Positions 4,480 through 48,205 of a DNA stretch of 64,000 bases are shown one piece after another. A program made the position numbers and the translations under genes. The notes beneath the pieces are model-generated. The model did not search any database. It had not been told where the DNA came from and worked only from the letters and a program-made list of their open reading frames with translations. Source of the stretch: Camelus ferus (Eukaryota); NCBI RefSeq assembly GCF_009834535.1, contig NC_045696.1, positions 47,990,001 through 48,054,000 of the forward strand, in the 5' to 3' direction. How positions within the stretch are numbered: position 1 is the stretch's first letter; each line of letters starts with the position of its first letter.

Positions 4480-5090
4480 AAAAAATCCAGACACATATCA
4501 TACAGAAAACAAATGCAAAAATATAGACATAAATTTAACTGTATCAATAATTGAGCCCAAAGTAAGTAAACTAAACTCTATCAGAAAGCAAAGATTATCA
4601 AACCTGATGACAAAGAAAAGTTCAATTATATGCTTTCTGCAAGAGATATATTTTAGATTAAAAGATATATAAATATTGAAAATAAAACAGTGAAAAAATA
4701 CATATCTAGGTGGGGAAGATATAGCTCAAGTGGTAGAGTGCATGCTTAGCATGCGTGAGGTCCTGGGTTCAATCTCCGGTACTTACTCTAAGAACAAATA
4801 AGTAAACCTAATTACCTCCCCCCACCAAAAAACCCACAAAAAAACTAATAACAAAAATACATATCTATACAATGTAAATATTAAGCATAAGAAAAATAGA
4901 ATGATTGTATTTATATTGGATAAAATAAAATTTAATGTAAGAAATACTGGAGACAAAGAGGAACATGTTATAATGCTAAAAAAGTTACTACATCAGGAAG
5001 ATATAAGAATTATAAATGTATATGTATCCAACAGAGCCTCCAGTACATAAAGCCAAAAGACAAAGTTGAAAGATAAACAATTCAGTAATT
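4480..5090 (+). mobile_element. Ancient L1 ORF2 endonuclease-region fragment, interrupted by a SINE
   Basis: Degenerate match to the ORF2 start ('ttatatgctttctgcaagagata', 'caggaagatataagaattataaatgtatatg'). Confidence 0.65.
4709..4852 (+). mobile_element. tRNA-Ala-derived SINE (vic-1-like, camelid)
   Basis: A box TAGCTCAAGTGG, B box GGTTCAATC, AGC anticodon remnant and A-rich tail. Perfect 15-bp TSD AAAAATACATATCTA at 4694-4708 and 4853-4867. Confidence 0.9.
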
Positions 5091-21441: not shown

Positions 21442-21578
21442 CTTTTTCTTTTTTGGGGGGGAAGGAGGAGGTAATTAGGCTTATTTACTTATTTATTTTT
21501 AATGGAGGTGCTGGGGATTGAACTCAGGACCTTGTGCATGCTAAGCACCAGCTCTACCACTGAGCTAAACCCTTCCCC
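21442..21578 (-). mobile_element. tRNA-Ala-derived SINE (vic-1-like)
   Basis: Reverse complement of the 4709 element, with A/B boxes and the 'cctaattacctcc' tail motif. Confidence 0.9.
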
Positions 21579-23947
21579 TAACCTTTTTATTTTCTTAGTG
21601 CCTTCCATGGAGCAGAAGTTCTTAATTTTTATGAAGTCCACTTTATCAATGTTTTCTTTCATGGATTGTGCTTTTGGTATTGTACCTAGCAAACTGTTGC
21701 CTAATCCAAGGTTACACAGATTTTCTCCTATGTTTTCTAATAGAATTTTTATAATTCTAGATTTTACATTTAGGTCTATTATTAATTTTGAGTTAATTGT
21801 TATATATGGTATGATTAAAATTTATTTTTGGCATATGTATATATATTTTGCATATATGTATTTGCATGTGTAATTGATCCAGCATTGTTTTTAGAAAATA
21901 TTGTGCTTTCTCTGCTGAATTTTCTTTGCAACTCTTTTCAAAATTAATTGACTATATATAAGGGAGACTTTTCTGGACTAAATTCTATTAAATTAGATCA
22001 ATTTGTTTATTCAAATACCATTAACATACTATCTTGATTAACGTAGCTTTATAGTATATCCTGTAATTAAGTTTTCCAACTTTATTCTGCTTTTTCAAGG
22101 TTGTTTTGGCTTTTCTAGGTCCTTTGTATTTCTAAATGTTTTTATGATTCAGCTTGTCAGTTTTTACAAATATAGGCTGCTCTGATTTTGATTGGATTGC
22201 ATTATATTTATACATTAATTAGAGGATAATTAACATTTAACAATATTTAGTCTTTTGATACATGAGTATGATATATCACTTAGTTGATTTGTCTTTAATT
22301 TCTCTCAGCAATAATTTGAAGTTTTATTGTCCATATTTTACACCTATTTTGTCAGATGTTCCTAAGTATTTTATATTTTTGATGCTATTTTAAATTGCAT
22401 TAAAATTTCAAAGTCAGATTTTTACTAGTATATACAAAACACCTGATTTTTGTCTATTCACCTTATATAACTGATTTATTAGTTCTAGTAGCATTTTTGT
22501 GGATTCCATCAGACTTTCTACAAAGGCAGTATGTAGTTTGTGTACACAGACAGGTTTACTTCTTATTTTTTAATATGGCTGTTATTTACTCATTTACTTT
22601 TCTTGATTTACAGCACTGTGTAAAACCTGTAAAATATTTTAAAATCACTTTACTGAGATATGATTGACATAGAAAAAGCTGTAGATGTTTAATGTATACA
22701 ACTTGATGTGTTTGGAGATTAGTATATTACCTGTCATTACTATCAATGCCATAAATGTATCCATCACCTCCACTGTTTCTTCCCAGCCACTTGTTGTTTT
22801 TTCACTTTTGGGATAAGAGCACTTAACATAATATCTACCATCTTAGCACATTTTAAAGTGTACATTACAGTGTTGTTAATTATAGGACCTATGTCGTACA
22901 GTTGTACTCCAAAACATTTATTTTGCACAGCTAAAGCTTGATCCCCTTTGACCAACACCTCCCCATTTCCCCCACCCTCAAGTCTCTGGCAACCACCAGT
23001 CTAACTGCTTCTACATGTAAGTGAAATAATGCAGTAGTTGTCTTTCTGTGTCTGACTTATCTCACTTAGCATAATGTCCTCCAGGTTCATCCATGTTGTT
23101 GCAAATGGCAGGACTGCCTTTTTTAAGGCTGAATAATATTCCATTGCACATCCTTTATCTGTTCATCCATCGATGGACATTTAGGTTGTTTTCATATCTT
23201 GATTACTGTGAATAATGCTGCAGTGAACATAGGAATGAAATATCTCTGAGATCCAGATTTCAATTCTTTTGGATACATACCCAGAAATGGGATTATTGGA
23301 TCATATGGTAGTTCTGTTTTTCATTTTTCAAGGAACCTCCATAATGTTTGCCATAGTGATTATACCAATTTACATTCCTTCCAGTGGTGTTCAAGTGTTC
23401 CCTTTTCTCCAAATCCTCATCAGTAGTTGTTGCCTTTTGGTTTTTTTTTTTTGATAACAGCCATCCTAACAGGTGCAAGGTGATTTCTCATTGTGATTTT
23501 GATTTGCATTTCCCTGATAATTAGTGATGTTGAGCACATTTTCATACACCTGTTGGAAATTGTATGTATTCTTTGAACAAATATTTGTTTGGGTGCTTTA
23601 CTCAATTTTTAATTGTTTTCTTTGTGTTTTTTCCCTTCCTACTAAATTGTTTGAGTTCCTTATATATTTTATTATTTTTCTTTTTCCTTATATACTTTAG
23701 ATATCAATTCCTTATCAGCTATATAGTCTGCAAATATTTTCTCCCATTCTCTAGGTTGCCTTTTCACGTTGTTGATTATTTCTTTTGCTCTACAGAAGCT
23801 TTTTAGTTTGATGTAGTCCCATTTGTTTATTTTTGCTTCTGTTGCCTATGTTTTTGGTGTCATATCCAAGAAATTATTGTCCAGTCCAATGTCTTTAGGC
23901 TTTTTCCTTCTGTCTTCTTCTAAGAGTTTTTTTTTTTTTTAACATTT

Positions 23948-23953
23948 TTTATT
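23948..23953 (-). terminator. L1 polyadenylation signal AATAAA
   Basis: TTTATT on the + strand, 7 nt from the poly(T) run. Confidence 0.8.
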
Positions 23954-24254
23954 GATTTATAATCATTTTACAATGTTGTGTCAAATTCCAGTGTTCAGCA
24001 CAATTTTTCAGTTATTCATGGACATATACACACTCATTGTCACATTTTTTTCTCTGTGAGTTATCATAACATTTTGTGTATATTTCCCTGTGCTATACAG
24101 TGTAGTCTATTCTACAATTTTGAAATCCCAGTCTATCCCTTCCCACCCTCCACCCCCCTGGTAACCACAAGTCTGTATTCTCTGTCTGTGAGTCTATTTC
24201 TGTCCTTTATTTACGCTTTGTTTTTGTTTGTTTGTTTGTTTTTGTTTTTGTTTT

Positions 24255-27200
24255 TTAGATTCCACATATGAGCGATCTCATATGGTATTTTTCTTTCTCT
24301 TTCTGGCTTACTTCACTTAGAATGACATTCTCCAGGAGCATCCGTGTTGCTGCAAATGGCATTATGTTGTCAGTTTTTATGGCTGAGTAGTATTCCATTG
24401 TATAAATATACCACTTCTTCTTTATCCAGTCACCTGTTGATGGACATTTAGGCTGTTTCCGTGTTTTGGCTATTGTAAATAGTGCTGCTATGAACATTGG
24501 GGTGCAGGTGTCATCCTGAAGTAGATTTCCTTCTGGATACAAGCCCAGGAGTGGGATTCCTGGGTCATATGGTAAGTCTATTCCTAGTCTTTTGAGGAAT
24601 CTCCACACTGTTTTCCATAGTGGCTGCACCAAACTGCATTCCCACCAGCAGTGTAGGAGGGTTCCCCTTTCTCCACAGCCTCTCCAGCATTTGTCATTTG
24701 TGGATTTTTGAATGACGGCCATTCTGACTGGTGTGAGGTGATACCTCATTGTAGTTTTGATTTGCATTTCTCTGATAATTAGTGATATTGAGCATTTTTT
24801 CATGTGCTTTTTGATCATTTGTATGTCTTCCTTGGAGAATTGCTTGTTTAGGTCTTCTGCCCATTTTTGGATTGGGTTGTTTATTTTTTTCTTATTGAGT
24901 CGTATGAGCTGCTTATATATTCTGGAGATCAAGCCTTTGTCGGTTTCACTTGCAAAAATTTTCTCCCATTCCGTAGGTTTTCTTCTTGTTTTATTTCTGG
25001 TTTCCTTTGCTGTGCAGAAGCTTGTAAGTTTCATTAGGTCCCATTTGTTTATTCTTGCTTTTATTTCTTCTAGGAGAAAATTTTTGAGATGTATGTCAGA
25101 TAATGTTTTGCTTATGTTTTCCTCTAGGAGGTTTATTGTATCTTGTCTTATGTTTAAGTCTTTAATCCATTTTGAGTTGATTTTTGTATATGGTGTAAGG
25201 GAGTGTTCTAGCTTCATTGTTTTACATGCTGCTGTCCAGTTTTCCCAACACCATTTGCTGAAGAGACTGTCTTTATTCCAATGTATATTCTTGCCTCCTT
25301 TGTCAAAGATGAGTTGACCAAAAGTTTGTGGGTTCATTTCTGGGCTCTCTATTCTGTTCCATTGGTCTATATGTCTGTTTTGGTACCAATACCATGCTGT
25401 CTTGATGACTGTAGCTCTATAGTATTGTCTGAAGTCTGGGAGAGTTATTCCTCCAGCCTCTTTCTTTCTCTTCAGTAATGCTTTGGCAATTCTAGGTCTT
25501 TGATGGTTCCATATGAATTTTATTATGATTTTTTCTAGTTCTGTGAAATATGTCCTGGGTAATTGGATAGGGATTGCATTAAATCTGTAGATTGCCTTGG
25601 GCAGTGTGACCATTTTAACAATATTGATTCTTCCAATCCAAGAGCATGGAATATCTTTCCATTTTTTAAAGTCTTCTTTAATTTCCTTCATCAATGGTTT
25701 ATAGTTTTCTGTGTATAATTCTTTCACCTCCTTGGTTAGATTTATTCCCAGATATTTTATTACTTTGGATGCTATTTTAAAGGGGATTGTTTCTTTACTT
25801 TCTTCTTCTGTTGATTTATCGTTAGTGTAAAGAAATGCAACTGATTTTTGAACGTTAATTTTGTAACCTGCTACCTTGCTGAATTCTTCAATCAGCTCTG
25901 GTAGCTTTTGTGTGGACCTTTTAGGGTTTTCTATATATAGTAACATGTCATCAGCATATAATGACACTTTTACCTCTTCTTTTCCAATTTGGATCCCTTT
26001 TATTTCTTTCTCTTGCCTGACTGCTGTGGCTAGGACTTCCAGGACTATGTTGAATAGGAGTGGTGATAGTGGGCATCCTTGTCTTGTCCCAGATTTTAGT
26101 GGGAAGCTTTTGAGTTTTTCACCGTTGAGTACTATGCTGGCTGTAGGTTTGTCATATATAGCTTTTATTATGTTGAGATATGTTCCCTCTATACCCACTT
26201 TGGGGAGAGTTTTTATCATAAATGGGTGTTGAATTTTATCAAATGCTTTTTCTGCATCGATTGAGATGATCATGTGGTTTTTGTCCTTTCTCTTGTTGAT
26301 GTGATGTATTACACTGATTGATTTGCGTATGTTGAACCAGCCTTGTGTCCCTGGGATGAACCCCACTTGGTCATGATGTATAATCTTTTTTATGTGTTGT
26401 TGGATTCTATTTGCTAAAATTTTGGTGAGGATTTTGGCGTCTATGTTCATCAGTGATATTGGCCTATAATTCTCTTTTTTTGTAGTGTCTTTGCCTGGTT
26501 TTGGTATCAGGGTGATGGTAGCTTCATAGAATGAGTTTGGGAGTAATCCCTCCTTTTCAGTCGTCTGGAAGAGTTTGAGAAGGACTGGTATGAGTTCTTC
26601 TTTGTATGTTTGGTAGAATTCCCCAGTGAAGCCGTCCGGTCCTGGACTTTTATTTGTAGGGAGGTTTTTAATTGGTATTTCTATTTCCTTTCTAGTGATT
26701 GGATTGTTCAAGTGTTCAGATTCTTCTTGATTCAGTTTTGGTGGACAGTATGTTTCCAGAAACTTGTCCATCTCCTCTAGGTTATCCAGTTTGGTTCCAT
26801 ATAGTTTTGCATAATATTCTCGTATGATATTCTGTATTTCTGTTTTGTTTGTTGTAATTTCTCCATTTTCCTTTCTTATTTTGCTAATTTGTGCTCTCTC
26901 TTTTTTCTTCTTTGTGAGTTTGGCCAGAGGTTTGTCGATTTTATTTACTTTTTCAAAAAACCAGCTTTTGGTTTGGTTGATTTTTTCTATGGTCTTGTTA
27001 ATCTCTATTGTATTTAATTCCTCTCTGATCTTTATTATTTCCTTCCTTCTGCTGCTTTTTGGGGCTTTTTGTTCTTCTTTTTCTAATTCATTCAGGTGGT
27101 GGGTTAAATTGTTTATTTGAGATTGTTCTTCTTTTTTGAGGAAGGCCTGTATCGCTATAAACTTCCCTCTTAGCACTGCCTTTGCTGTGTCCCATAGGTT

Positions 27201-28050
27201 TTGAGTGGTTGTGCTTTCATTCTCATTTGTCTCAAGGTATTTTTTAATTTCAGCTTTGATTTCCTCATTGATCCATTGTTTTTTCAATAACATATTGTTT
27301 AATCTCCATGCTTTCCTTTTTTTCTCCTTTGTTTCTCTGTTGTTGATTTCCAGTTTCATGGCATTGTGGTCAGTAAAGATGCTTGAGATAATTTCTATCT
27401 TCTTAAAATTGTTGAGGTTTCTTTTGTGCCCAAGTACATGATCGATCCTGGAAAATGTTCCATGTGCACTTGAAAAGAATGTATATCCTATTTTTGGGGG
27501 GTGTAATGCTCTGAAAATATCCACCAAATCTAGTTTTTCTATTGTAGTATTTAATTTCTCTGTTGCCTTGTTTATTTTCTGTCTGGAAGATCTGTCTAGT
27601 GATGTTAATGCAGTGTTAAAGTCTCCAACTATGATTGTATTCCCATCAATATCCCCCTTTATCTCTGTTAGTAATTCTTGTATGTACTTAGGTGCTCCTA
27701 TATTGGGTGCATATATATTAACGAGTGTAATATCCTCATCTTGTATCACTCCTTTAATCATTATAAAATGTCCTTCTTTATCTTTCTTTATGGCCTTTGT
27801 TTTAAAGTCTATTTTGTCTGAAATCAGTACTGCAAGACCTGCTTTTTTGGCTTTTCCATTTGCATGGAATATCCTTTTCCATCCTTTCACTCTCAATCTA
27901 TGTGTCCTTCTCCCTCAAGTGGGTCTCTTGTATGCAGCATATTGAAGGTTCTTGCTTTATTATCCAGTCTGCCACTCTGTGTCTTTTGACTGGAGCATTT
28001 AGTCCATTAACATTTACAGTAATTAATGATAGATGTGTGTTTATTGCCAT
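24255..28050 (-). pseudogene. L1 ORF2p (endonuclease/reverse transcriptase), one frameshift at ~27900
   Basis: ATG at 28050 reads MAINTHLSLITVNVNGLN...[13 protein letters not shown] then TAG. Restoring 2 nt joins the 1213-codon open frame carrying GDFN, RIDH, DH, QGCPLSP, YADD and the CCHC motif (~1265 aa). Confidence 0.93.
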
Positions 28051-28453
28051 TTTGAACTTATCTTTGCAGTTGAATTGGTATATCCTCTTTGTTCCTTTCT
28101 TCTTCCTTTTGTGGTTTGGTAATTTTCCTTTGTATTATCATGGATTTTATTTAATTTTTGTGACTCCTTTGTAAATTTTTGGCTTGTGGTTACCCTTTTT
28201 TGTAAATCTATCAACCCATTACTATAACTGTTTTTATTAAACTGATAGTAACATGATCTCAAACCCATCCTACTGTTAAAAAAATTTAAAAAGAAAGAAA
28301 AAGATATTCTATATTTCCCTGCCTCCCTCTCCCACTCTCAGTGATTTGTATGTCTTCTTTTATAATTTCATGTTTACTTTATTTGTAATTCATGAGTTAT
28401 CACCTTTCCAGTTGTGTGTTTCTCATTTCTGTAGCATCCTGCTGCTTTTCTAT

Positions 28454-29357
28454 TTAGAATAGCGCTTTCAATATTTCTTTTAGCATGGGTTTAGTGTTGC
28501 TAAACTCCTGCAGCTTTTTTTTGTCTGTGAAACTCTTTATTTCTCCTTCTATCCTCAAGGATAGCCTTGCTGGATAAAGGATCCTAGGCTGCATCTTTTT
28601 TTCATTCAGGGCTTTGAATATATCTTGCCACTCCCTTCTGGCCTGTAGTGTTTGTGTAGAGAAATCAGCTGAGAGCCTTATGGGGGTTCCCTTGTAACTT
28701 ACTCTTTGCTTTTCTCTTGCTGCCTTTAGAATCATTTCTTTATCCTTGCCTCTGGCCATCTTGATTATGATATATCTTGGTATGGGTCTATTTGGGTTCT
28801 TCCTGTTTGGGACCCTCTGAGCTTCCTGTACTTGGATATCTGATTCCTTCTTTAAGTTTGGGGAGTTTTCAGTCATGATTTCTTCAAAAACCTTTTCAAT
28901 CCCCTTTGATCTTTCTTCTCCTTCTGGGACCCCTATTATGCGAAGATTGGGACGCTTTATATTATCCCATAGGTCCCTTATGCTATTTTCATTATTTTTT
29001 ATTTGCTTCTCTTGTAGTTCTTCTGAATGAGTGCTTTCTATTGCCCTGTCTTCTAGATCACTAATTCGTTCCTCTGCATTATCTAGTCGGCTTTGCACAG
29101 CTATTAGATCATTCCTCATCTCTGTCAATGAGTTTACCCATTCTACTTGGCTCTTCTTTATAGCTTCAATTTCATTTTTGAACATATTTTATATCTCTAA
29201 ACACTATCTCTTTTAATTCCTTCAGCAATTCGATCACTCCTTTTTTGAAATCTTGATCTAGTAGGCTATCGATGTCTATTTCGTTGATCTTTCTTTCAGG
29301 GGATTTCTCTTGTTCTTTTAATTGGGAGAAGTTTTTCTGCTTCTTCATCTTGCTCAT
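28454..29357 (-). pseudogene. L1 ORF1p, one +1 frameshift at ~29180
   Basis: ORF 29172-29357 and ORF 28454-29185 (NLRIIGVPEGEE, ARREW, YPARLS) fuse into 300 aa if one nt is removed from TATGTTCAAAAAT. Confidence 0.92.
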
Positions 29358-29849
29358 ACCTCTTTGGCACTGTGGTTTATGGAGTATCAGTTGTTTATTT
29401 TGGTCCTTAAGGATTTTATCTATCTGATGCCTATTTAGGAATAGAACTTAGGAAAAAAAGAAAAAAAAAAGAGAGAGAGAAAGAATTTTAAAAGAAGGGA
29501 GAAAGAGGGTTTGAAAACAGTGTATAATGAATAATAGAAGAGTGAGTTGAAGCAGAGTATTAATCGGGTTGAGACGTCTTTTTAAAACCTTTACAAAAAA
29601 AAGGGGGGGGAGATGAATAGATATATTTGAAACCTGTGTCTAATCAATAGCAGGACATCAAAACCCAAGAGAAATAGAAATGAATTAAGAAGTAAAGATT
29701 AAGAGAGTAACAGAAAATAGAACAGGTAAAAACAGATTTAAAAAAAAAAGGGGGGGGGGGGTTGTCGGTGTTCTCCTGGAGTCTGTGTGCTTTTAATGTG
29801 AAGTCTTTCTGTCTTCGTCCTGTTTTGGAAGCTCAGCTTGCTGTTTTCA

Positions 29850-31037
29850 GAGGCCCTCCGTTGGCGCCCTCTTCTGTGCTGCTCCCAGCACCTGTCGCAA
29901 GCAGATCGCGCCTCCTCCTAACACTGGGTCAGGTGCAGCTCTCCTCTGCTGTGGGCGGGCGGGTCGCTGCCCCTCCGGATGCCGCAGTCAGATGTTGCAG
30001 ACTGGCCAGGTAGGAGGGCGGGTCGTGCCCCCCTCCCAGCACCTCGGTCAGGGGCTGTGTTCCTGCCGGAAAGGCGGGGGGGCCGCTCTCGCTCTACCTG
30101 CACCGCCGCCGGTAGCTCCGCTGCTCTGTGCGGTTGCGCGCTCCGCCCTGGTCGGCGCTCCGCAGGTGGGCTCGGGGAAGACCGAGGGACAGCCCTGTCC
30201 CTGCTCCGAGCCAGAATCCAGCTCCTTGTTTGTCTTTGTGGAGCAAGTTCTCTGAGGGACCAGGATGGAAGGATCCTGTCTGCCCCGGGCTGCAGGCCAG
30301 TCTCAGTCTGGCCTTTGCGGCTGCTAAGCCCTTCGGTGCGGTTGCAGGTTTCGCCCCCGCCCCCGCCTGAGTGCTCAGCGCGGAGGATATGGCGGCTGTG
30401 CCTGAGCCCCGCCTCTCTTCCCCTGAAAACTTTCCGCGGGTTTTCAGAGATGGGGGTGTGCACCCTTCCCCCGAGAGCACATCAACCTTGCTGTTTTATG
30501 CAGGGCCCAGGTTGTTTTGCCCTGTGCACCCACAGCCACGGCGCGCAGCCCCTTGCGTTCCCCTGGGGCTGCCTCCGTGCAGCCACTTCCGTCCTCCGCC
30601 CGGCTTGTGCAGCCTGGCCCTGCCCGCCGCTGCCGGCCCGCGTCTCAGGCTGGGTGTCGGGGGGATGCTCTGTGCCCGTTTAACTTAGTTCTGTTAGTCA
30701 AGGGCTGCTCTGTACAGATCCGAGCCTCGGAGGCTCCCCCTCCGTCCCGCTGGCCTCTCAGTTGGAGAGGGGAGACCCAGCGAGCGAGCGCCAGTCCTCC
30801 TTTGCCGCTCCCTCCCCGCGGGACCCGTCCCGCGCTGCTTTGCCTTTTGTTCTTTCTTTTTTCCTTTTCTCCTACCAGATTTTTGGCGTCTTTATCTTTT
30901 GAAGAGGGTGATGTTCTGTCGGAGTTCCACAGGTGCTCTGGTTGGCTGAGTGGGTCTGCAGATGTGGGTCTTGGTGTATTTGTGGGAGAGGGTGACCTGC
31001 GAGCGTCCTTCTACTCCGCCATCTTCTCCCGGAAGTC
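29850..31037 (-). promoter_or_regulatory. L1 5' UTR CpG-island internal promoter with YY1 site
   Basis: The only GC/CpG-dense block in the window. It has AAGATGGCGG (+ strand CCGCCATCTT at 31016-31025) and GC boxes near 29953-30080. Confidence 0.85.
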
Positions 31038-31745
31038 TCTAAGAGTTGTATTGTTTCAGGTTTTATGTTTAGGTATTTAATCAGTTTTGTTGATTTTGGT
31101 AAATGGTGTGAAATAATGGTCTAATTTCATTCTTTTGAATATGGATATGCCATTTGCCATACACCATTTATTAAAGAAACTCTCTTTTCCCCATTGTGTA
31201 TTTTGGGCACCCTAGTCAAAGATCAGTTGACTGTATCCAAATAGATTTATTTCTAGGATCTCTATTCTGGTGCATTGGTTTATGACTGTTTGTATGCAGT
31301 ATCATACTGTTTTAATTACTGTAGCTTTGGAATATGTTTTGAAATCAGGATCATTATACTTCCAGCTTTGTTCTTCTAGCTCAGAATTGCTTTGGCTATT
31401 TGGGGTCTTTTGTGATTCCAAATAAATTTTATGATTTTTTTTTCAACTTATGTGAAAAAAATGCAATTGGGATCAGTAGGGTGAAGCCACAAAGGGATAG
31501 GGCTGCTTTTGGTTCTGCAACCAAGTCTATGGATGATGGATCTACTATTGGGGCATGGACCTGCCTTCTTAAAGTGGCTGTTTTTAGTCTTGGGCTCCAA
31601 AGAGTTGTCATAACTTCTTATCTGGATCCCAGAGCTTCTACAGAGGCGCTTTTATCCATGAATGGTTGCTGAATTCGTGTTTCTGTGAGGGTTGAGGTCT
31701 GGGGACTTCCTATTCTGCTGGCTTGCTGACATCACCCAACATTAA

Positions 31746-32289: not shown

Positions 32290-33697
32290 AAACTGAACAG
32301 AAGTGGAGAGAGCAATTATTTTGCCTTATTTTTTTGAACTTATAAAAATACCATTCACTCTTTTACCTAGCAGTAAGCTTTTTGTAGATGTCCCTTATAA
32401 GGTTGAGAATGCTCTCTTTTATTCCTAATTTGTTGAAAGTTTTTATAAGACTTGGATGTTAGATTTTTATCAAGTGTTTCTGTTTTGAGATGACCATAAA
32501 GCCTTTTCTTAGTCTTTAAAATATATAAATTACACTGAATAATTTTTTAATGTTAAAACAAATTTGCATTCCTGAAATAGACTTGTCTTTGTCATGATGC
32601 ATTATCCTTTTTATATTGTTGGGTTCAATTTGCTAAATTCTTAATTTTTAAGTTTTTGCCTTCATGTTCACAAGGAATATATAGGTCCATAGGTCTGTAT
32701 TTTTTTTTTTTTTTAATGCCTCTGGTTTTGGTATCAGAGTAATTCTGGCCTTAGTGAATGAAAGTTTAAGTATTCCTTGCCTAAGTGTTTTATAGTATTC
32801 ACCAGTGAAGCCAGGTGGGACTAGTTTTCTTTGCAGGAAGATTTTTAGCTACAATGCTAAAAATGATATAGAGCCATGAAAAACTAATTCTTCTTGAATG
32901 AGTTTTGGTAATTGTTGTCTTCCAAAAATTTTTGATCATTTTATCAATGTTGTCAACTTTATTGGCATGAAGTTTTCATAATACTCTTTTATTATTTTGT
33001 TTTAATATCAGTAGAATCTGTAGCAGTGTCACCTTACTTATTCCAGATATTGTTAATTTGTGTTTACTCTCTTTTTTCCCCCAGATCATTCTGGATAGAA
33101 ATTTATCAATATTATCAATCTGATTAAAGAACCAGTGTTTGTTTTCATGGACTTACTACATAGTTTTCTGATTTGTATTTTACCACTCTGTCCTTCCTTC
33201 TGCTTATTTGGATTTCATTTGTGCATCTTTTTCTAGTTTCTAAGGTAAAAGTTGTGGTTGTTGATTTGGGACTTTTTTTTTTTTTTTTTCTGTTAAAGCA
33301 AGTAGCGCTATAAGCTTTCTTGTAACTATAACTTTCACTGCATCCCCAAAACTTTGATATGTTGTGTTTTTATTTTTAATTCAGTTTAAAATACCTTCCA
33401 TTTCCCCTTCTGATTTCTTCTTTGATTTATGAATTATTTATAAGTGTGCTATTTTGTTTTTACATATTTGGGGATTTTTAAAAAAGATATCTTAATGTAG
33501 TTGGTTTCAAATTCAGTTCTATGGTGGCAATACTTGATTGATTTTAAATGTATTGAGATTTGTTTCATGACCCAGAATATGGTTTATGTTGTTGTGTCCT
33601 GAGGGAACTTGAAAAGAATGTGTATTCTGCAGTTGTTGAGTGGAATGTTCTATAAGTGTCTTAGTCAACTAGATTGATAATGCTCAAGTCTCGTACA

Positions 33698-34012
33698 CAG
33701 GCAGACCTCGTTTTATTGCACTTCAATTTATTGTGCTTCACAGATATTGCATCTTTCACTAACTGAAGATTTTTGGAAAACTGCTTTGTCAGATGATGGT
33801 TAACATTTTTTAGCAATAAAGTGTTTTAATGAAGATATGTACACTAATTTTCAGACATGATGCTATTGTGCACCTAATAGCCTACAGCATATATGAACAT
33901 AACTTTTATATGCACTAGGAAATCGAGAAATCCGTGTGACTAGTTTTATTGCGATGTTCCCTTTATTGTGGTGCTCTGCAACCCAACCCACAGTGTTTCC
34001 GAGGGAAGCCTG
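33698..34012 (+). mobile_element. Internally deleted Tigger1-like DNA transposon
   Basis: Inverted termini CAGGCAGACCTCG and CGAGGGAAGCCTG, followed by TA. Confidence 0.85.
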
Positions 34013-35589
34013 TATTCCCAATGATTTTCTTCCTTGTGCAGTGAGGGGTTTTTAAAGTTATTTAACTATAATTATGGATTTGTCTATTTCATTTTTTTGC
34101 AGCTCTATCAGTGTTTATTTCATATATTTTGAAGCTCTCATTAGCTGTATGTATGTATTAGGGTTTGGTATCGTATATCTACTTGATGAATTGACCCCTA
34201 TATTACTATGAAATATCCCAATTTCGTCTCTGTTAATATTCTTTATAACGAAGTCAACTTTGTCTGAAAAAATATAGCCATTTCAAGCTTTAATTTTCTT
34301 TTGAAGAGATTTGAATAATAAAATTATCCTTACATTTGCCAGTGTAGTTATCACTTCCTATGTGTTTCATGCCTACTTAGACCCAGTGTTTCTATCTGAT
34401 TTCTTGTTCCTTCTGCTTAAAAAACTTCCTTTAACATTTCTTGTAATGCATGTCTGAGTTCTTTTTGGTTTTGTGTGCCTGAAATAATCTCCATTTTGCT
34501 TTTGTTCCTAAGAAGTAGTTTCATGGGATAAAGAATTATAAGTTGATATGTTTTGTTTTTTCTTTCTATGCTTTTAAGATGTTGCTTCCCTGTCTTGTTT
34601 ATATTGTTTCCAATATGAAATAAGCTGTCATCCAAGTACAATGCCGACAGAGGCGCATGTTATGTGCCTCTGTACATAACATGTCTTTTTTCTTTTGCTG
34701 TTTTAAATATTTTTCTTTTATCAGTAGTTTAGAGGAATTTGATTTTGATGTATGTTCATACAGTTTTCCTCGTTTTTCTTGTGCTTTGAGTTTGAGCTTT
34801 TGGATCTGTGGGTTTCTAGTTCCTCCTTTCTCCTCACTTCTCTTGGGACTCTAATTACATATATTTTAGATTGCTTGAAATTGCCCCACAGCTTATCAAT
34901 TCTCTGCATATTTTTTAGTACATTTTCTCTTAAAGTGTTATAATGGATAGTTTTGACTGCTTTGTATTCAAGCTCACTGATCATTTTCTTCTGCAGTGTC
35001 TCATCTTCCACAATCATAGCCAATGAAATTTTCCTCTCAGACATTGTCCTTTTCATCTCTAGAAGTTTAATTTGTGCCTTTTTTTTTTTTTTGGTTTCTA
35101 TGCCTCCACTTCACATATTCAGTCTTTCCTCTAAATTCTTAAATGTACAAAATATAACTAAAATAACAGTTAACATTCTTTGTCTGCTAATTCTCTCTTC
35201 TGTGTCATTTCAGGGACAGTTTCAGTTGACTCCTCTCTTCACCATGGGTCCTGTTTTTTATGCTTCTTTGCATGCCTGGTAATTTTTTTATAGGATACCA
35301 GGTATTTAAAATGTTATCTGGTTGGTGGCTTTATACATTAATATTCTTTTAAATACTCTTGGGCTTTGTTCTGGGATTTGGTTAAGCTACCTGCAAACAG
35401 TTCGATGCATTTTGGACTTTCCTTTAAGTCCTATTAGGTGGAACCAGAGAAGTTTCTAGTCTGTGGCTAATTTTTCCCCAGTACTACAGCCAAACTGCTC
35501 TGATTACTCTACTCAATGCCCTGTGAATTATGAGCTTTTGATCTGTAGCTGGTGTGAACTGGTACCTCCCTGGCCCTATATGAGCTCCC

Positions 35590-35989: not shown

Positions 35990-38900
35990 TCTCCAATCCC
36001 CGGGGTGCTCTTTCTGCAGGCTTGAGTAGTTTCTTCACAAGCATGTGCTAGTTAGTACTTAACCGTGCAGATTTTCAGTTAAAATTTGTTCAACTCTTTT
36101 CTCCAGCACTTTCCCTTGCAAACTCTAGTTACCTTGGTCTCTTATCCTCCCAGCCCCATCCCTCCACCTCAGGGAGACTACTTGGCTCTAAATGAGTTTG
36201 CTCTTCTTGTGTCATGGCCTCTTCATTGGCTGACACCCAATATCTCAAGTGCATAATGTTTCACATTCTGTGTACAATTTTTTAAGTTATTTCAGGTGAG
36301 AGGATACATCTAGCCCTTGTTACTTCATCTTGGCTCAAAGTAAAAAATCTCTAGCAGTATGTTTTAAAATTAGATTGTACCATCATCTCTTGTTACAAAT
36401 AGAAATGAAATAAATTATTTGTACAGAATAAAACATTCAGAATTCATAATTTAACTAACTTTATACACTTATCAAGTTGTCATAGACCTCCAGAATTCTG
36501 ATTTCCTCATTTGTAGGAGGATAATGATACCCGTCTCACAAGGTTGTTAGGAAGTTTAAATGAATAATAAATGAGAAAGCACGTAGAACTGTGTACGTCT
36601 TACTCATAGTAGGCATTAAGATGTTTAATTCACTTTCCTGAGTTTGATGTGTTGATTAATTAAAACTGGTTGCAAGTTTTAGACTGTGTGCAGGGGTTAG
36701 AAGTATACTGAGGAATGTAAGTACATGTAAATTATATTGTTGCTATTTTAATAGTACAGCCAAAGTTTGTGAGTTGGGTACTGGTGGTAAGTACCCTATA
36801 TTTCACTTGTCTGCCCTTATCCTGTAAAAAGGAGTTTAATTAAAGTAGTATTATATTTGCCATTTGTAGATTCTCTTTAGTGGAATGTCTCCTTATGTCA
36901 TTTGCCCATTTTTTAATTGGATTTTTTTAACTGATGAGTTTTGAGGGTTCTTTATATATTCTAGATTTAAGTCTTTTGTCAGATATACGGTTTGCAAATA
37001 TTTTCTCTTATTCTGTAGCTTGTCTTTTCATTCTCTTATCAGCATCTCTCACACAGAAAACTTTTTTTTCTTGAACTGTGATGAAGCCCAGTTTATAAAG
37101 ATTTTCCTTTTGTCCATACTCTTAAGTGTCATGTCTGAGGACTCTCTACTAAGCCTTAGGTCCTAAAGATTTTCTCCTATGTTATCGTCTATATTTTTAT
37201 AGCTTTATGTTTTATGTTTAAAGCTATGGTCATTCAGATTTTTGTATAATGTATAAGGTTTAGATTAAAGTTCATTCTTTTGCCTATGGGTTTCCAATTG
37301 CTCCAGAACCATTTATGGAAAATATTATATTTCTTTCACTGAATTTCTTTTGCATTTCTGTAGAAAATAAATTGGCTGTACTTGTGTGGGTCTATTTCTG
37401 AGTTATCTGTGACATTCCATTGATCTACATGTCTATCCATTTGTCAGTACCACACAGTCTTGATTATTTTGGCCATATAATAAAGTCTGAAGTTAAATAG
37501 AATAATTCTTCCCATTCTATTATATTTTAAAATCATTTCAGATACCCGAGGTCCATTGCTATTCCACACATTTTAGAATAGTCTTGTCTATGTATTCAAA
37601 ATAAATTTTGCTGGGATTTTGATAGTGATTGTGATATACCTCAATTAATTTGGGCATCTCTGCTATGTTGTCTTCTTGTCCATGAAACCATGACACAATA
37701 TGTCTCCCTATTTATTTAGGTCTTCTTTCATGAGCATTTTGTGATTATCAGCATACAGATTCTGCATATGTTCAGTTAAAAGTACATCTAAGCATTTCTT
37801 TTCTTTTTTCTAATGATTAAAGATGTAGTCTGTTTTAAATGTTGGTATCCATGTGTTCATTGCTGGTATATAAAAATACAACTGATTGTTGTATGTTGAT
37901 CTTATATTCTGTGACCTTGCTGAACTCACTTAGCTGTTTAATGAATTTCTTTGGGTTTCCTATATGTACGATCATGTCATCGGCAAATAGGGACAGTCTT
38001 ACTTCTTTCTTTCTGATCTATATGCCATTTCTTCTCTTTACTTGTTTTAATGCACTAGCTGAAACTTCAGAACTATGCTGAACAGAATTGATGAGAAGAG
38101 ACATCCTTGCCTTGTGATCTAAGGGGAAAGCTTTCAGTCTTTCACTATTAAATATGATGTTAGCTGAAGGCTTTTTGTAAATGATTTTAATCAAGTTGAG
38201 AAAGTTCCCATTTATGTCTAGTTTTCTGAGAGTTTTTAGTTTAAATGAGTAATGAGTATTGCCAAATACTTTTTCTGCAGCAATTAATGTGATTGTGTAA
38301 TTTTTCTTTTTGCCCTGTTAATATGGTAGATTACATTGATTGATTTTCTAATATTGAATTAGCTCTGCCTCCTTAGAACAAACATACCATATGGTCATGG
38401 TTTATAATTTTTTAAAATATATTCCTAAAGTCTATTTGCTAACATTTTGTTAAAGTTGTGTGTGTGTGTGTGTGTGGTTGTTTAATGAGGAATATTGGTC
38501 TGTAGTTTTCATTTTTTGTATTGTCTTTGGAATCAGGATAATAGTGGCTCCACAGAATAATGTGGGCATGTTGCCTTCTTATTATTTTTTTAAAAATGTG
38601 TAGAATTAGTATTATCTTTTCTTTCAGCATTTGGTAGAATTCTGCAGTGAAACCATCTGGAACTGGATGTGTCCTTTTTGAGACTTTAAAATTAATAATT
38701 CAATTTCTTTAACAGTTATGGGGATATTCAAGTTATTGACTTCACTTTGCATGAACTGTGGTAGCTTATGTTTTTGAGGAATTCGTCTGTTTCATCAAAA
38801 TTGTCAAATTTACATGTGGATAGCTGTTCATAGTATTATTCTTTTGGTGTCTGCAATATCTGTAGTAATTTCCTACATTTCCTTTCTGATATTGCTAATT

Positions 38901-40655
38901 GTGTCTTCTCTCTTTTTTTTCTTTGACACTTTTGCTAGAGATTGTCATTTTTGAAGATCATTTCCAAGAACCAGTTTACTGATTTCCTCCATTGTTGTTC
39001 TATTTTCAATTTTATTTATCTCTGCTTTTATCTTAATTATTTTATTCCTTCTGCTAGATTTGGGTTTATTTTCCTCCTCTTTTTTAATTTCTTGAGGTAG
39101 AAAATTATATTACTGACTTGAGAGCTTTCCTCTTTTCTAATGTAATCATTTAATGTTCTACATTTCTCCCTTCTCAGCATTGCTTTTGTTGTTTCACACA
39201 AATTTTAATATGTTGTATTTTCATTTTCATTCAATTCAATGCATTTTTAAATTTTCTTTGAGACTTCTCTTTTGACTCTTGGGCTACTGAGAAGCATGCT
39301 GTTTAGTTTTCAATTGTTCGGTAATTTTCCTACTATATTTTAGTTATTGATTTTAGGTTGGATTTCATTATTGCTGGTAAACACATTCTCTATGATTTTA
39401 ATTCTTTAAAACTCTTTGAGGTTTGTTTTATGGCCCAGCATATGGTTTATCTTGGTATATGTTCTGTTGTCACTTGAAAAAAAAATTGTGTGTTCTGCTG
39501 TTGTTGGGTAGATTGTTCTATGCATGTTGATTACAACAAGTTGGTTGATGAATTCGTTGAGTTCTTTTTCACCCTTGCCAATTTTCTGTCCAGAAATACT
39601 ATCAGTTGCTAAGAAGTGAGTTTGGCATCTCCAAGCATAATTGTGGATTTGTCTATTTCTCCTTTAAGTTCCAACAATTTTTATTCGTGTATTTTCAGGA
39701 TCATTGTCTGATGCAAACACAATTAGAATTTCTGTCTTCTTTGTGGATTTATCCTTTTATTATTATGTAGTATCTTTCTCTGTCCTTGGTAATTTTCTTT
39801 TCTGTGAAATCTACTTTATATGATGTTTATATAGCTATTCCTACTTTCTTTTGATTCATGTGTGCATGGCATATCTTTCTTTTTAATTTTTACCTACTTA
39901 TATTGTTCTGTTTGAAGTTTCTTGTAGACAGCATATAGCTGGGTATGCCAGTCTCTGTCTTTTAATTTGTACATTTAGATCATTTACATTTAATGTAATT
40001 ATTAATACATTAAGGCTTATGCCTGACATTTTGTTGTAATTTCTGTTCTTTCTGTTTCTCACTTCTCTATTTTTATTTTCCTTGCCATATGTAGGTTATT
40101 TGTACACATTTTAGAAGTTCATTTTGATTTATCTATATATTTTTTCTTATATTTCCTTTATAGCATTTTTTTAGTGGTTGCTCAAGATATTACATTACAT
40201 ATACATAATTTATCACTGTCTACTGATGTCTATTGGTATTCAAGTAAACTATAGAAATCTTACCTCTCTTTTTGTCCCTTTACTCTTAACTATGTATAAT
40301 ATAATTGCCTTACCTATTTTCTAGTACATTTAGACATGCTTATAATACATCAGTTTTGTAATTTTTGCTTCAACTATCAAACATAATTGAGAAAATTGAA
40401 GAGGATGAGAAAAAACTGTCATATTTACCCATAATTTTCCTTTTTCTGCTGTTCTTTCTTTCTTTCTTTCTTTCTGAGGTTCCAAGATTTCTTGTTTTAT
40501 CAATTCTTTTCTGCTCAGAGATATTCATTTAGCTAATCTTTTAGACTAGTTCTGTTGATGACAAATTCTCTTGATTTTTCTTCATCTGAGAATATTTTTT
40601 TCCCTTCATTCCCAAAGGATATTTTTGTTGGATAAAGAACTCTGGGTTTGAAGTC

Positions 40656-40836
40656 CTTTTTATTTATTTATTTAAATTTTAATTTTGAAATCTTTTGGGA
40701 GAAGTAATTAGGTTTGTATTTATTTATTTATTTGTTTGTTTGTTTGTTTGTTTGTTTTTAATGTAGGTACTGAGAATTGAACCCAGGACCTTGTGCATGC
40801 TAGGCATGCACTCAGCCACTGAGCTATGCCCTCCCC
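40656..40836 (-). mobile_element. tRNA-Ala-derived SINE (vic-1-like) with (TTTA)/(TTTG)n tract
   Basis: 'ttgaacccaggaccttgtgcatgctaggcatgcac...actgagctat'. Confidence 0.88.
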
Positions 40837-41007
40837 ATTGATTTTTTTTAAATTTCAGCACTTAAAAAGTAGTGTACCACTTCTTTCTGGCCTCTGTGGT
40901 TTCTGATGAGGTCTGGTCTTTTGTGAATTACTTTTCCCCAATAGGTAAAGGTGTCATTTCTCTCCTCTTGCTTCCAAGATTTCTTCTTTGTTTTCAGTTT
41001 TCAGAAG

Positions 41008-41264
41008 GTTACACAATAATGAGGGTAGCACTGGGTATAGGAATAAAAGCTGCTCCAGAACCTCAGGAGCCAGGCTAGTACAGCCTTCTCCCTGTGATCC
41101 TGTCTGTGCTCACCCCTGGAGTTCATCTTGCCAAAGCCAAAGCCACCTCTGTCCCCACCACCTTAGTCCCCTCCTTGGCCTAGGTAGCCTCCCCGATCAT
41201 AGCATCCTCTGCCACCATGATGATTATGTCCATAGTTAACATCCACATGAGAACCTCCTGGTCC
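41008..41264 (-). pseudogene. FUS: Processed pseudogene fragment of FUS (RGG3/PY-NLS coding end plus start of 3' UTR)
   Basis: The minus strand translates as [58 protein letters not shown], compared with FUS [29 protein letters not shown]...[26 protein letters not shown]. It continues 'tagcctggctcc..aggttctgga.cagctttt...cccagtg.taccctc', like the FUS 3' UTR. No introns are present. Confidence 0.9.
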
Positions 41265-43087
41265 TGGACTATGATGTACTTAGGTATGTTTTTCTTTGGG
41301 CTTATTTTTTTTGGTGTCTGCTGAACTTCTTGAATTTCTAAGCTTATGTTTTATTGACCAATTTGAGAAATTTTCAGCCATTATTTATTTGAATAATTTT
41401 CAGCCATACAATTTTTCTCCTCTCCTTCCAGGATTCCTATAATAGGAATGTTAGATCTTTTGTTAAAGTCCCATAAATCCTTGTTAAAATTTTCCAGTTT
41501 AGTTTTTCTCCATGGTTCTATCTTCCAGTTCACTAATTCTTTCCTCTGTCCTCTCCATTCTGCTTCTGAGACCTTTTGTTGAGCTTTTAAATTTTAGGTA
41601 TTTTATTTTCTAGTTCTAAAAATGCATTTGAAACTTCTTTATATCATCTGTTTCTTGATTAAGACTTTGTATTTTTTAAATTTGTTTCAAGCATGTTCAC
41701 AATTGTTGAGGCATTTTTATTACGGATACCTTAAAGTTCTTGTCAGATAATTCTAACATCTGTGTCTCAGTCTTGACATCTGTTGATTGTTTTTTCTCAT
41801 TCTAGTTGAGAATTTTCTAATTTTTATATGATGAGTAATTTCTTTAAATTGAATCCTGGACATTTTGGTTATTGTGTTGTGAGACTTTAGATCTTATTTA
41901 GGTTTTTAGTATAGCAGACATCCTCTGACACCAGTGGGAAAAGAGGGGTAGCATGTCATTAGTGTCAGGTGAGGGTAGAAGTCTAAGTTTCTTACTTGAC
42001 TTCTGTTGACACTGGTAGGGAAGGAAGGTGCTCTTTGTTGCTGCTGGGTGAGGGTGGGGGTCTAGGCTGTCTATAACGCATACACTAATACCACTCTGGC
42101 TGGCAGTTGTGAGGTACCCCATCACTCCCCACATGGTCTCCCTGACACTGTTGAAGGTGGTACCTTGTTACTACTGGAGATTGGCAAAAGACATGACTCT
42201 CTGCTAGGCCTCATCTGAGACCAACTTAGTGGGAAATGAGAGGAATGTCAATACCTTTTTTTTCTTTTTTTTTTTTTTAGATGGGGGTGGAAGACCAGGT
42301 TTCCCACTTGGTCTCCATTGACCCCACAAAGAGGGACAGCTTGTTACCATTCAGTAGGGATAAAAGTCCCATTTTCTTTCTTAGACTTCATTGACACCTC
42401 CCTGGCAGAGGAATTAGGGTGACTTGTTATAGCCTGGTGAGGGTAGAATTCTAGTTGCCTCACTTGGCTTTTGAAGACAGAGGTGTGGGTAGGGTCACTG
42501 TTTTGCTCCATGTCTGGTTGGAGTAGAGTGGTTATTGTGTAATTAGAAACAAATCTTGGTAGGTTCCCCTTTTCTGGATCTTTGGCTGGATTGAGAAAGC
42601 TTTTCTTGGGGGCATTTTCTGTCTGTACCTGTTATTGTTTCTAGGTTGCCTGCTGCTTCAGCACCCAGTCTGGGACGTGTAAGGTAAAACAAAAACAAAA
42701 AAAATGAGGGAACTCATTGCTCAGAAGTACCTATGCTTCTAGTTGCTGAAATATCTCTTTGGTTCTAATGTGCAAATTGGCTTGCTTCTGCACTGCTTCT
42801 TCCCTGGGGGCTTAGATTTTAGCATTCTCAGGTTTTCTAGGTCAGTTGCCATTTTTCCATCTGCTTCTAATTTTTCAAAATTTTCTGCTTAGCATCTCTT
42901 TTCCTGATCACATTGTCCTTATGGATTTATTTCTAAAAGCATTTTATTAGGTTTTTGTGAATGATATGCCTTTCATTTTTATGGATCTATTATAAATTGC
43001 AGTTCTTCAAAAGTATTTCCTTTGTATGAGGTTTTTATTGAAAATATTTTAGATCCACTCTCTCCATGCCAATGGCTCCATAGCATT

Positions 43088-48066: not shown

Positions 48067-48205
48067 TTTGCTTGTTTGTTTTTTGGGGGGAGGTAATCAG
48101 GTTTATTTATTTAACTATATTTTTAATGGAGGGACTGGGGATTGAGCCCAGGACCTCGTGCATGCCATGCATGTGCTCTACCCCTTGAGCTGTACCCTCC
48201 CCTCC
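48067..48205 (-). mobile_element. tRNA-Ala-derived SINE (vic-1-like)
   Basis: Same family motifs. Degenerate TSD TAGATAAAATT / TAGGGAAAATT. Confidence 0.85.

What the first reader, a model, noticed from the sequence alone, without database searches (positions are those of the whole stretch)
41004..41266. Tailless, TSD-less spliced FUS cDNA fragment patched into an old L1
Seen: ~257 bp of non-L1 sequence splits an L1 between 'ttttcagaag' and 'gactatgatg'. It has no poly(A), no target-site duplication, an in-frame stop and CpG-decay-type changes (RR to HH). Known: it matches the FUS C-terminus and proximal 3' UTR as I recall them, crossing the positions of the last two introns, so it is mRNA-derived. 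About 21 nt of the RGG repeat are missing. GAAG at 41004-41007 fits both the FUS UTR and the L1 flank. Inference: RNA-templated break repair or endonuclease-independent/internally primed retrotransposition rather than ordinary TPRT. The ORF track misses it entirely.
Basis: partly seen in the sequence, partly recalled or inferred. Interest (0 to 1): 0.7.

Follow-up and report, generated by a model that had tools for sequence, protein, structure and literature searches.

The report
Spliced FUS fragment patched into LINE-1
A short, intron-free piece of the FUS gene's message sits inside an old jumping-gene copy without the usual retrocopy marks, most likely an ancient scar where a DNA break was patched with copied RNA, which is a known kind of event.

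Summary
Window 41264-41008 (minus strand, 257 nt) is FUS codons 458-526, the stop and 67 nt beyond it. It runs without a gap across the positions of introns 13 and 14 and lacks 7 codons of the RGG repeat (6 of 6 PDB hits are FUS). It splits ORF1 of an old, near-full-length L1 in the same orientation. The ORF1 reading frame works as a built-in empty site: about one codon was lost and nothing was duplicated. There is no poly(A) and no TSD, while two insertions nearby keep theirs. The host L1 looks about twice as decayed as the insert, so the insert probably came later. Best reading (0.68): a spliced-mRNA-derived cDNA captured at a break without L1 endonuclease. This is the known class 2 templated insertion / RT-mediated break repair type. 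Rivals: copied from a FUS retrocopy elsewhere, a trimmed ordinary retrocopy, or a double template switch during L1 insertion. No FUS DNA or orthologous site was available, so the UTR identity, the 4-nt microhomology and the date are only partly tested. Real and clean, but a new member of a known kind.

The parts
41268..41666 (-). Host L1 ORF1, 5' part (coiled coil to RRM), decayed; the last Val codon ends at 41267. The L1 5' UTR probably continues to about 42700 (not mapped).
   Evidence: tblastn with the young ORF1 of the window, E 9e-15; frameshift-aware profile alignment
41265..41266 (-). Two unassigned bases at the 5' junction (untemplated, a remnant of the lost L1 Lys codon, or FUS codon 457)
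   Evidence: between the end of the ORF1 alignment and the start of the FUS alignment
41243..41264 (-). FUS exon 13 end (codons 458 to about 465); boundary within about 2 nt
   Evidence: boundary inferred from p.G466VfsX14 (PMC10642611 passages)
41116..41242 (-). FUS exon 14, 127 nt: 7 codons (21 nt) of the RGG repeat missing, with an in-frame stop at 41165-41163 beside the gap
41075..41115 (-). FUS exon 15 coding part (PY-NLS, codons 514-526) and stop codon 41077-41075; one extra base after codon 523
   Evidence: codon numbering agrees with variant nomenclature in PMC13394925
41008..41074 (-). 67 nt after the stop, read as proximal FUS 3' UTR, ending without a tail; 6-of-7 match to the miR-141/200a seed site at 41033-41027
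   Evidence: seed from PMC13088682; G48A site from PMC8508793; full UTR identity is recalled, not tested
41004..41007 (-). Four bases that belong to the L1 frame (Leu-Leu codons) and, by recall, also to the FUS UTR: candidate microhomology and priming site
   Evidence: L1 side: (residue after the lost Lys is Leu in 77 of 120 homologues); FUS side not testable here
40518..41007 (-). Host L1 ORF1, 3' part, resuming one codon short of the normal spacing; interrupted by a tRNA-derived SINE
40675..40836 (-). tRNA-derived SINE in the same host L1, with an A-rich tail and a decayed flanking repeat (16 of 19 columns); serves as a control
   Evidence: Rfam tRNA hit 40762-40833
36861..39880 (-). Host L1 ORF2, decayed: 974 codons aligned, 25 frameshifts, 19 stops, 46% identity to the young ORF2

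Best explanation
A dead fossil with no function. Long after an old L1 had integrated, a germline break occurred in its ORF1. SHOWN: a 257-nt piece of spliced FUS sequence was joined in, with about 1-3 nt of target lost (up to 7 if the 4 shared bases are counted as FUS only), 2 unassigned bases at the 5' junction, no TSD, no tail and no L1-endonuclease site at the 3' junction. INFERRED: the broken plus-strand 3' end paired over 4 bases with FUS mRNA about 70 nt past the stop codon and primed reverse transcription (L1 ORF2p acting without its endonuclease, another RT, or a ready-made cDNA). Copying stopped in exon 13 and the end was closed by end joining. The piece then decayed neutrally (CpG loss, a stop, a +1 base). 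The 21-nt RGG deletion arose by slippage, either during copying or later.
For: Spliced origin: gap-free alignment across both exon junctions (junctions, checked by the V-S-T-D-R frame). Target loss without duplication: the ORF1 spacer is 7 residues in 115 of 120 homologues and starts with Lys in 118 of 120; the host has 6 and lacks the Lys. No TSD or tail, whereas the young L1 has a poly(A) tail and a perfect 10-nt TSD, and the SINE in the same host keeps a tail and a 16-of-19 repeat. Host older than insert: 19 stops in 974 codons fits about 0.16 substitutions per site, P = 0.002 at 0.07, against 10 of 140 non-CpG nonsynonymous sites in the insert. Not an assembly artefact: 14 runs in 5 studies and 3 organism labels hold 0.96 of the stretch's 81 words (one may be the source sample). 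The same anatomy is described for class 2 insertions and for spliced Pcnt and Inadl pieces captured at Cas9 breaks in zygotes.
Against: The microhomology is verified on the L1 side only. Nothing shows that RNA was the direct template at this site. The age gap is soft: the insert's interval reaches 0.127, 19 stops are compatible with 0.13 (P = 0.23), frameshift densities are alike (25 in 974 against 1 in 62 codons), and ORF1 26/155 against all insert changes 17/140 is not significant (p = 0.32). Insert and host share orientation, which a template switch predicts and a break patch gives only half the time.
Confidence: 0.68

Rival explanations
1. DNA-templated patch: the break was repaired by copying 257 nt from a FUS processed pseudogene that already lay elsewhere in the genome. 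The introns were lost earlier, in an ordinary retroposition.
For: It gives the same junction marks. Two stored mammalian 'FUS' models (P0130 ferret, P0122 vole) carry Arg-to-Cys/Gln/His or similar changes that look like decayed retrocopies (my inference), so such donors may exist in mammals.
Against: FUS mRNA is abundant (recalled) while a retrocopy is one locus. Experimental templated insertions depended largely on reverse transcription (PMC5110952). No other FUS piece lies in the window.
Confidence: 0.13
2. Ordinary 5'-truncated TPRT retrocopy with a tail and TSD, later trimmed by a deletion that removed the distal UTR, the tail, the 3' TSD copy and about 3 nt of L1.
For: 3'-truncated, tail-less retrocopies are frequent (64.2% of inserted human retrocopies had tails, 59.6% had TSD motifs). 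A 4-nt match could equally mark a microhomology-mediated deletion.
Against: The deletion would have to end within about 3 nt of the TSD edge, a coincidence. The 5' flank offers only a weak endonuclease site (by eye).
Confidence: 0.1
3. L1-FUS-L1 chimera made in one event: while copying this L1's RNA, ORF2p jumped at the 4-nt match onto FUS mRNA, copied 257 nt and jumped back almost in register.
For: Same orientation as the host, which template switching predicts (bioRxiv 10.1101/2025.02.02.635956). Tiny target loss. Match lies at the end where reverse transcription would enter FUS.
Against: The host looks about twice as decayed as the insert. It needs two jumps, the second back to within a codon. 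The chimeras in the passages I read have the foreign RNA 5' of the L1, not inside it.
Confidence: 0.06

Closest known systems
Class 2 templated-sequence insertions (Onozawa and Aplan; PMC5110952, parts 1-3 of 4 read)
   Same: Distant template, no TSD, no poly(A) or signal, microdeletion, microhomology and extra bases at the junctions; spliced cDNAs are among the templates; experimental inserts were 73-414 bp.
   Different: Those are human polymorphisms or experimental events. This one is old, decayed and shared by three organism labels, in a non-primate mammal.
[quoted passage not shown] 2015; PMC4516963, passages read)
   Same: Internal pieces of spliced mRNA (Pcnt, Inadl) skipping several introns, no tail, short microhomology at one end.
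   Different: Seen at Cas9 breaks in mouse zygotes, with an ERV-L RT suggested. Here the break was natural and the RT is unknown.
Endonuclease-independent L1 retrotransposition / non-classical L1 insertion (Morrish 2002, Sen 2007; seen only as cited in PMC5110952, PMC4516963, PMC2912911)
   Same: Truncated at both ends, no TSD, no endonuclease site.
   Different: The template there is L1 RNA; here it is a cellular mRNA.
Tailless retropseudogenes (Noll et al. 2015; PMC5322556, passages read)
   Same: 3' truncation without a tail, by internal priming.
   Different: Defined by 8-35 nt TSDs and A-rich priming sites; neither is present here.
L1 chimeric insertions with cellular RNAs (Law and Burns; bioRxiv 10.1101/2025.02.02.635956, introduction and passages read)
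   Same: Foreign RNA in sense orientation next to L1 sequence.
   Different: The foreign part is 5' of the L1 and of the same age; here it is internal and probably younger.

Membership tests
Class 2 templated-sequence insertion / RMDR | Insert copied from a distant locus | tested here: met
   FUS match; no other FUS sequence in the window
Class 2 templated-sequence insertion / RMDR | No TSD | tested here: met
   (below 188 of 200 random pairs); ORF1 register shows loss, not gain; controls
Class 2 templated-sequence insertion / RMDR | No poly(A) tail or polyadenylation signal | tested here: met
Class 2 templated-sequence insertion / RMDR | End-joining marks: microdeletion, extra bases, microhomology | tested here: inconclusive
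   Microdeletion of about one codon met; 2 unassigned bases seen; microhomology shown on the L1 side only, FUS side recalled
Class 2 templated-sequence insertion / RMDR | Introns skipped, showing an RNA stage | tested here: met
   Gap-free across both junctions; junction positions from human/mouse nomenclature, assumed conserved in this mammal
Class 2 templated-sequence insertion / RMDR | RNA or cDNA, not a genomic retrocopy, was the direct donor | not testable with these tools
   No genome held for this window
Class 2 templated-sequence insertion / RMDR | Empty allele observed | not testable with these tools
   No orthologue or read alignment obtained; the empty site is only reconstructed from ORF1 homologues
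Classical processed pseudogene (TPRT) | Poly(A) tail, TSD and TT/AAAA site | tested here: not met
Tailless retropseudogene | Flanked by 8-35 nt TSDs | tested here: not met
   definition; scan
L1-RNA chimeric insertion | Foreign segment of the same age as the L1 | tested here: inconclusive
   Host about 0.16 against insert about 0.07; intervals overlap at the edges

The most novel reading that the evidence does not exclude
The structure is an in-register L1-mRNA-L1 sandwich made by ORF2p leaving its own RNA for FUS mRNA and returning to within one codon during a single, near-full-length retrotransposition. That would be a germline fossil of double template switching in trans, an architecture not seen in the chimera passages I read.
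Probability: 0.06. Interest if true: 0.55.

Novelty: new member of a known kind. Interest (0 to 1): 0.22.

Why it matters
It is a tidy natural example of a spliced mRNA piece fixed in a mammalian germline without L1 hallmarks, and its target can be read back from the host ORF1 frame to within a few bases. That trick (inserts inside coding repeats give their own empty site) could be used to count ancient break patches across genomes. The piece has no promoter, start codon or intact frame, so no function is expected. The mechanism class is already described, so one more case changes little.

Tried and rejected
Own-genome search: none held. Read alignment to test for an empty allele and to read FUS mRNA against the insert: no result obtained, so both questions stay open. 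A 20-nt motif scan of metagenome contigs for host FUS DNA gave 1 locus, a chance match in unrelated bacterial-looking sequence. Word-indexed protein search with the decayed insert found nothing among 37 candidates. The search with a true FUS tail gave 35 proteins, none labelled camelid or other artiodactyl; of 38 FUS-like proteins printed, 34 keep the segment missing here, including 4 of 4 informative mammalian-type tails, and 4 were uninformative. Paper searches for a printed FUS 3' UTR and for FUS retrocopies or this locus listed nothing relevant; only search listings were seen for most, and supplements were not opened. Onozawa 2015 is not held. Folding of the insert is unremarkable, z = 0.98. 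Pfam on 82 non-repeat ORFs of at least 62 aa gave no hit above a curated cut-off, so no host gene was identified; short exons would be missed. A first regex count of the ORF1 spacer missed 69 of 120 proteins and one alignment count was mis-anchored (part a); both were replaced. My ungapped TSD scan at the SINE picked a distant match; the gapped comparison is used instead and is weak because the repeat is A-rich. Rejected: TAF15 origin; chance low-complexity match; genomic FUS with introns (no room for them); classical TPRT; tailless retropseudogene in the strict sense.

Full report
What is there. The window is AT-rich, L1-dense mammalian DNA; no genome is held for it. The closest named ORF1 relatives of its young L1 come from bats, pig, peccary and horse. 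Its tRNA-derived SINEs resemble a camelid family by my recall, so the host is probably a camelid; that is a guess. On the minus strand, 41264-41078 encodes FUS codons 458-526. All 6 PDB hits at E up to 10 are FUS, best 3.3e-14, with one 7-residue gap. The 1.84-billion-protein search gave 3 hits, all FUS-type, 2 named FUS. The alignment score is 234 against at most 57 in 500 shuffles. Full-length TAF15 is in the PDB library and was not hit; the EWSR1 tail was not available.

Decay. Against a stored FUS tail, 15 of 62 codons differ, by at least 17 bases, 7 of them CpG-type. There is also a +1 base after codon 523. Codon numbering agrees with variant names in PMC13394925 (passages). The missing RGG segment is present in 34 of 38 FUS-like proteins printed, the other 4 being uninformative, so its loss is derived; no artiodactyl FUS was seen.

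Spliced origin. Skipping exon 14 gives p.G466VfsX14 (PMC10642611, passages). Reading the window from 41115 in that frame gives G-V-S-T-D-R, which places the junctions at about 41243/41242 and 41116/41115. The alignment crosses both without a gap. This assumes that intron positions are conserved in this mammal, which is standard knowledge. After the stop (41077-41075) come 67 nt with no tail. A 6-of-7 match to the miR-141/200a seed site at +42 to +48 lies close to the human G48A site (PMC8508793, passages).

The target. The flanks are ORF1 of an old, near-full-length L1 on the same strand (ORF1 41666-40518, ORF2 39880-36861). In 120 ORF1 homologues the spacer between the two motifs that flank the junction is 7 residues in 115 and starts with Lys in 118; the host has 6 and no Lys. 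So about one codon was lost: 1-3 nt, or up to 7 if the shared bases are counted as FUS only. Nothing was duplicated. The TSD scan scored below 188 of 200 random pairs, the longest A run in the insert is 2, and the 3' junction is not a TTTT/A site. As controls, the young L1 has a poly(A) tail and a perfect 10-nt TSD, and the SINE about 170 nt away in the same host keeps its tail and a 16-of-19 A-rich repeat. The stretch is in 14 runs of 5 studies and 3 organism labels at 0.96 of 81 words, so it is not an assembly artefact; one run may be the source.

Order of events. Non-CpG divergence of the insert is 10 of 140 nonsynonymous sites, 0.07 (interval 0.035-0.127). The host ORF2 has 19 stops in 974 codons, which simulation matches at about 0.16 (P = 0.002 at 0.07, 0.23 at 0.13). 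Divergence at columns shared by the young L1 and older copies is 0.21, an upper bound. Against this, frameshift densities are alike, the aligner may add stops near frameshifts, and the ORF1 comparison is not significant when CpG changes are kept (p = 0.32). The host is probably, not certainly, older.

How it most likely arose. A break in the dead L1 was patched with FUS-derived cDNA. The geometry fits priming of reverse transcription by the plus-strand end on a 4-base match in the 3' UTR, followed by end joining in exon 13; a ready-made cDNA fits as well. Shown: spliced sequence, both truncations, small target loss, missing hallmarks. Inferred: the break, the priming, the enzyme and RNA as direct donor. 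I give this 0.68. A DNA copy from another FUS retrocopy gets 0.13, a trimmed ordinary retrocopy 0.10, and a double template switch during the L1's own insertion 0.06.

Comparison with what is known. It works like, and meets the testable features of, class 2 templated-sequence insertions (PMC5110952, parts 1-3 of 4) and RMDR, where spliced Pcnt and Inadl pieces were captured at breaks in mouse zygotes (PMC4516963, passages). It fails the TSD criterion of tailless retropseudogenes (PMC5322556, passages) and the hallmarks of classical retrocopies. In long-read human data only 64.2% of inserted retrocopies had tails and 59.6% had TSD motifs (bioRxiv 10.1101/2020.06.07.139212, passages), so missing hallmarks are common. 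PMC12065846 (abstract and outline only) concerns repair of a gene by its own transcript, a different case. PMC2912911 (passages) gives microhomology at 3' junctions of endonuclease-independent and tailless insertions. My searches listed no paper on this locus; supplements were not opened and could list it. This scan noted a parallel POLR2A-in-MIR case in another genome, an unchecked AI note that suggests such scars recur.

Verdict. Interest 0.22.

Noticed in passing
window 23919-31047, minus strand: Young full-length L1 (CpG-rich 5' UTR near 30000-31030, long stop-free ORF1 and ORF2 stretches of 244 and 1219 aa, poly(A) tail, perfect 10-nt TSD). Both ORFs are broken near their starts. It splits an older L1 at about ORF2 residue 929.
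   Followed up: partly
window 41096-41078, minus strand: Neutral decay in the fossil has produced R521H and P525L, changes at the same codons as human ALS variants; both are CpG-type transitions, so this is expected and not functional.
   Followed up: yes
window 4715-4787, 21503-21574, 40762-40833, 48127-48199: Four copies of a tRNA-derived SINE; the copy in the host L1 is 78-81% identical to the other three.
   Followed up: partly
window 32300-35100, minus strand: A second, more decayed L1 with ORF1 (35095-34420) and part of ORF2, next to the 3' end of the host L1.
   Followed up: partly
stored proteins P0130 and P0122: Ferret and vole proteins labelled FUS carry scattered substitutions in the otherwise invariant tail, as a decayed retrocopy would; they may be mis-annotated FUS pseudogenes.
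   Followed up: no
window 40850-41650 in RNA runs X15-X19: Five RNA or guessed-RNA runs hold 0.31-0.49 of the words; this could be intronic transcription, DNA carry-over or a related species.
   Followed up: no
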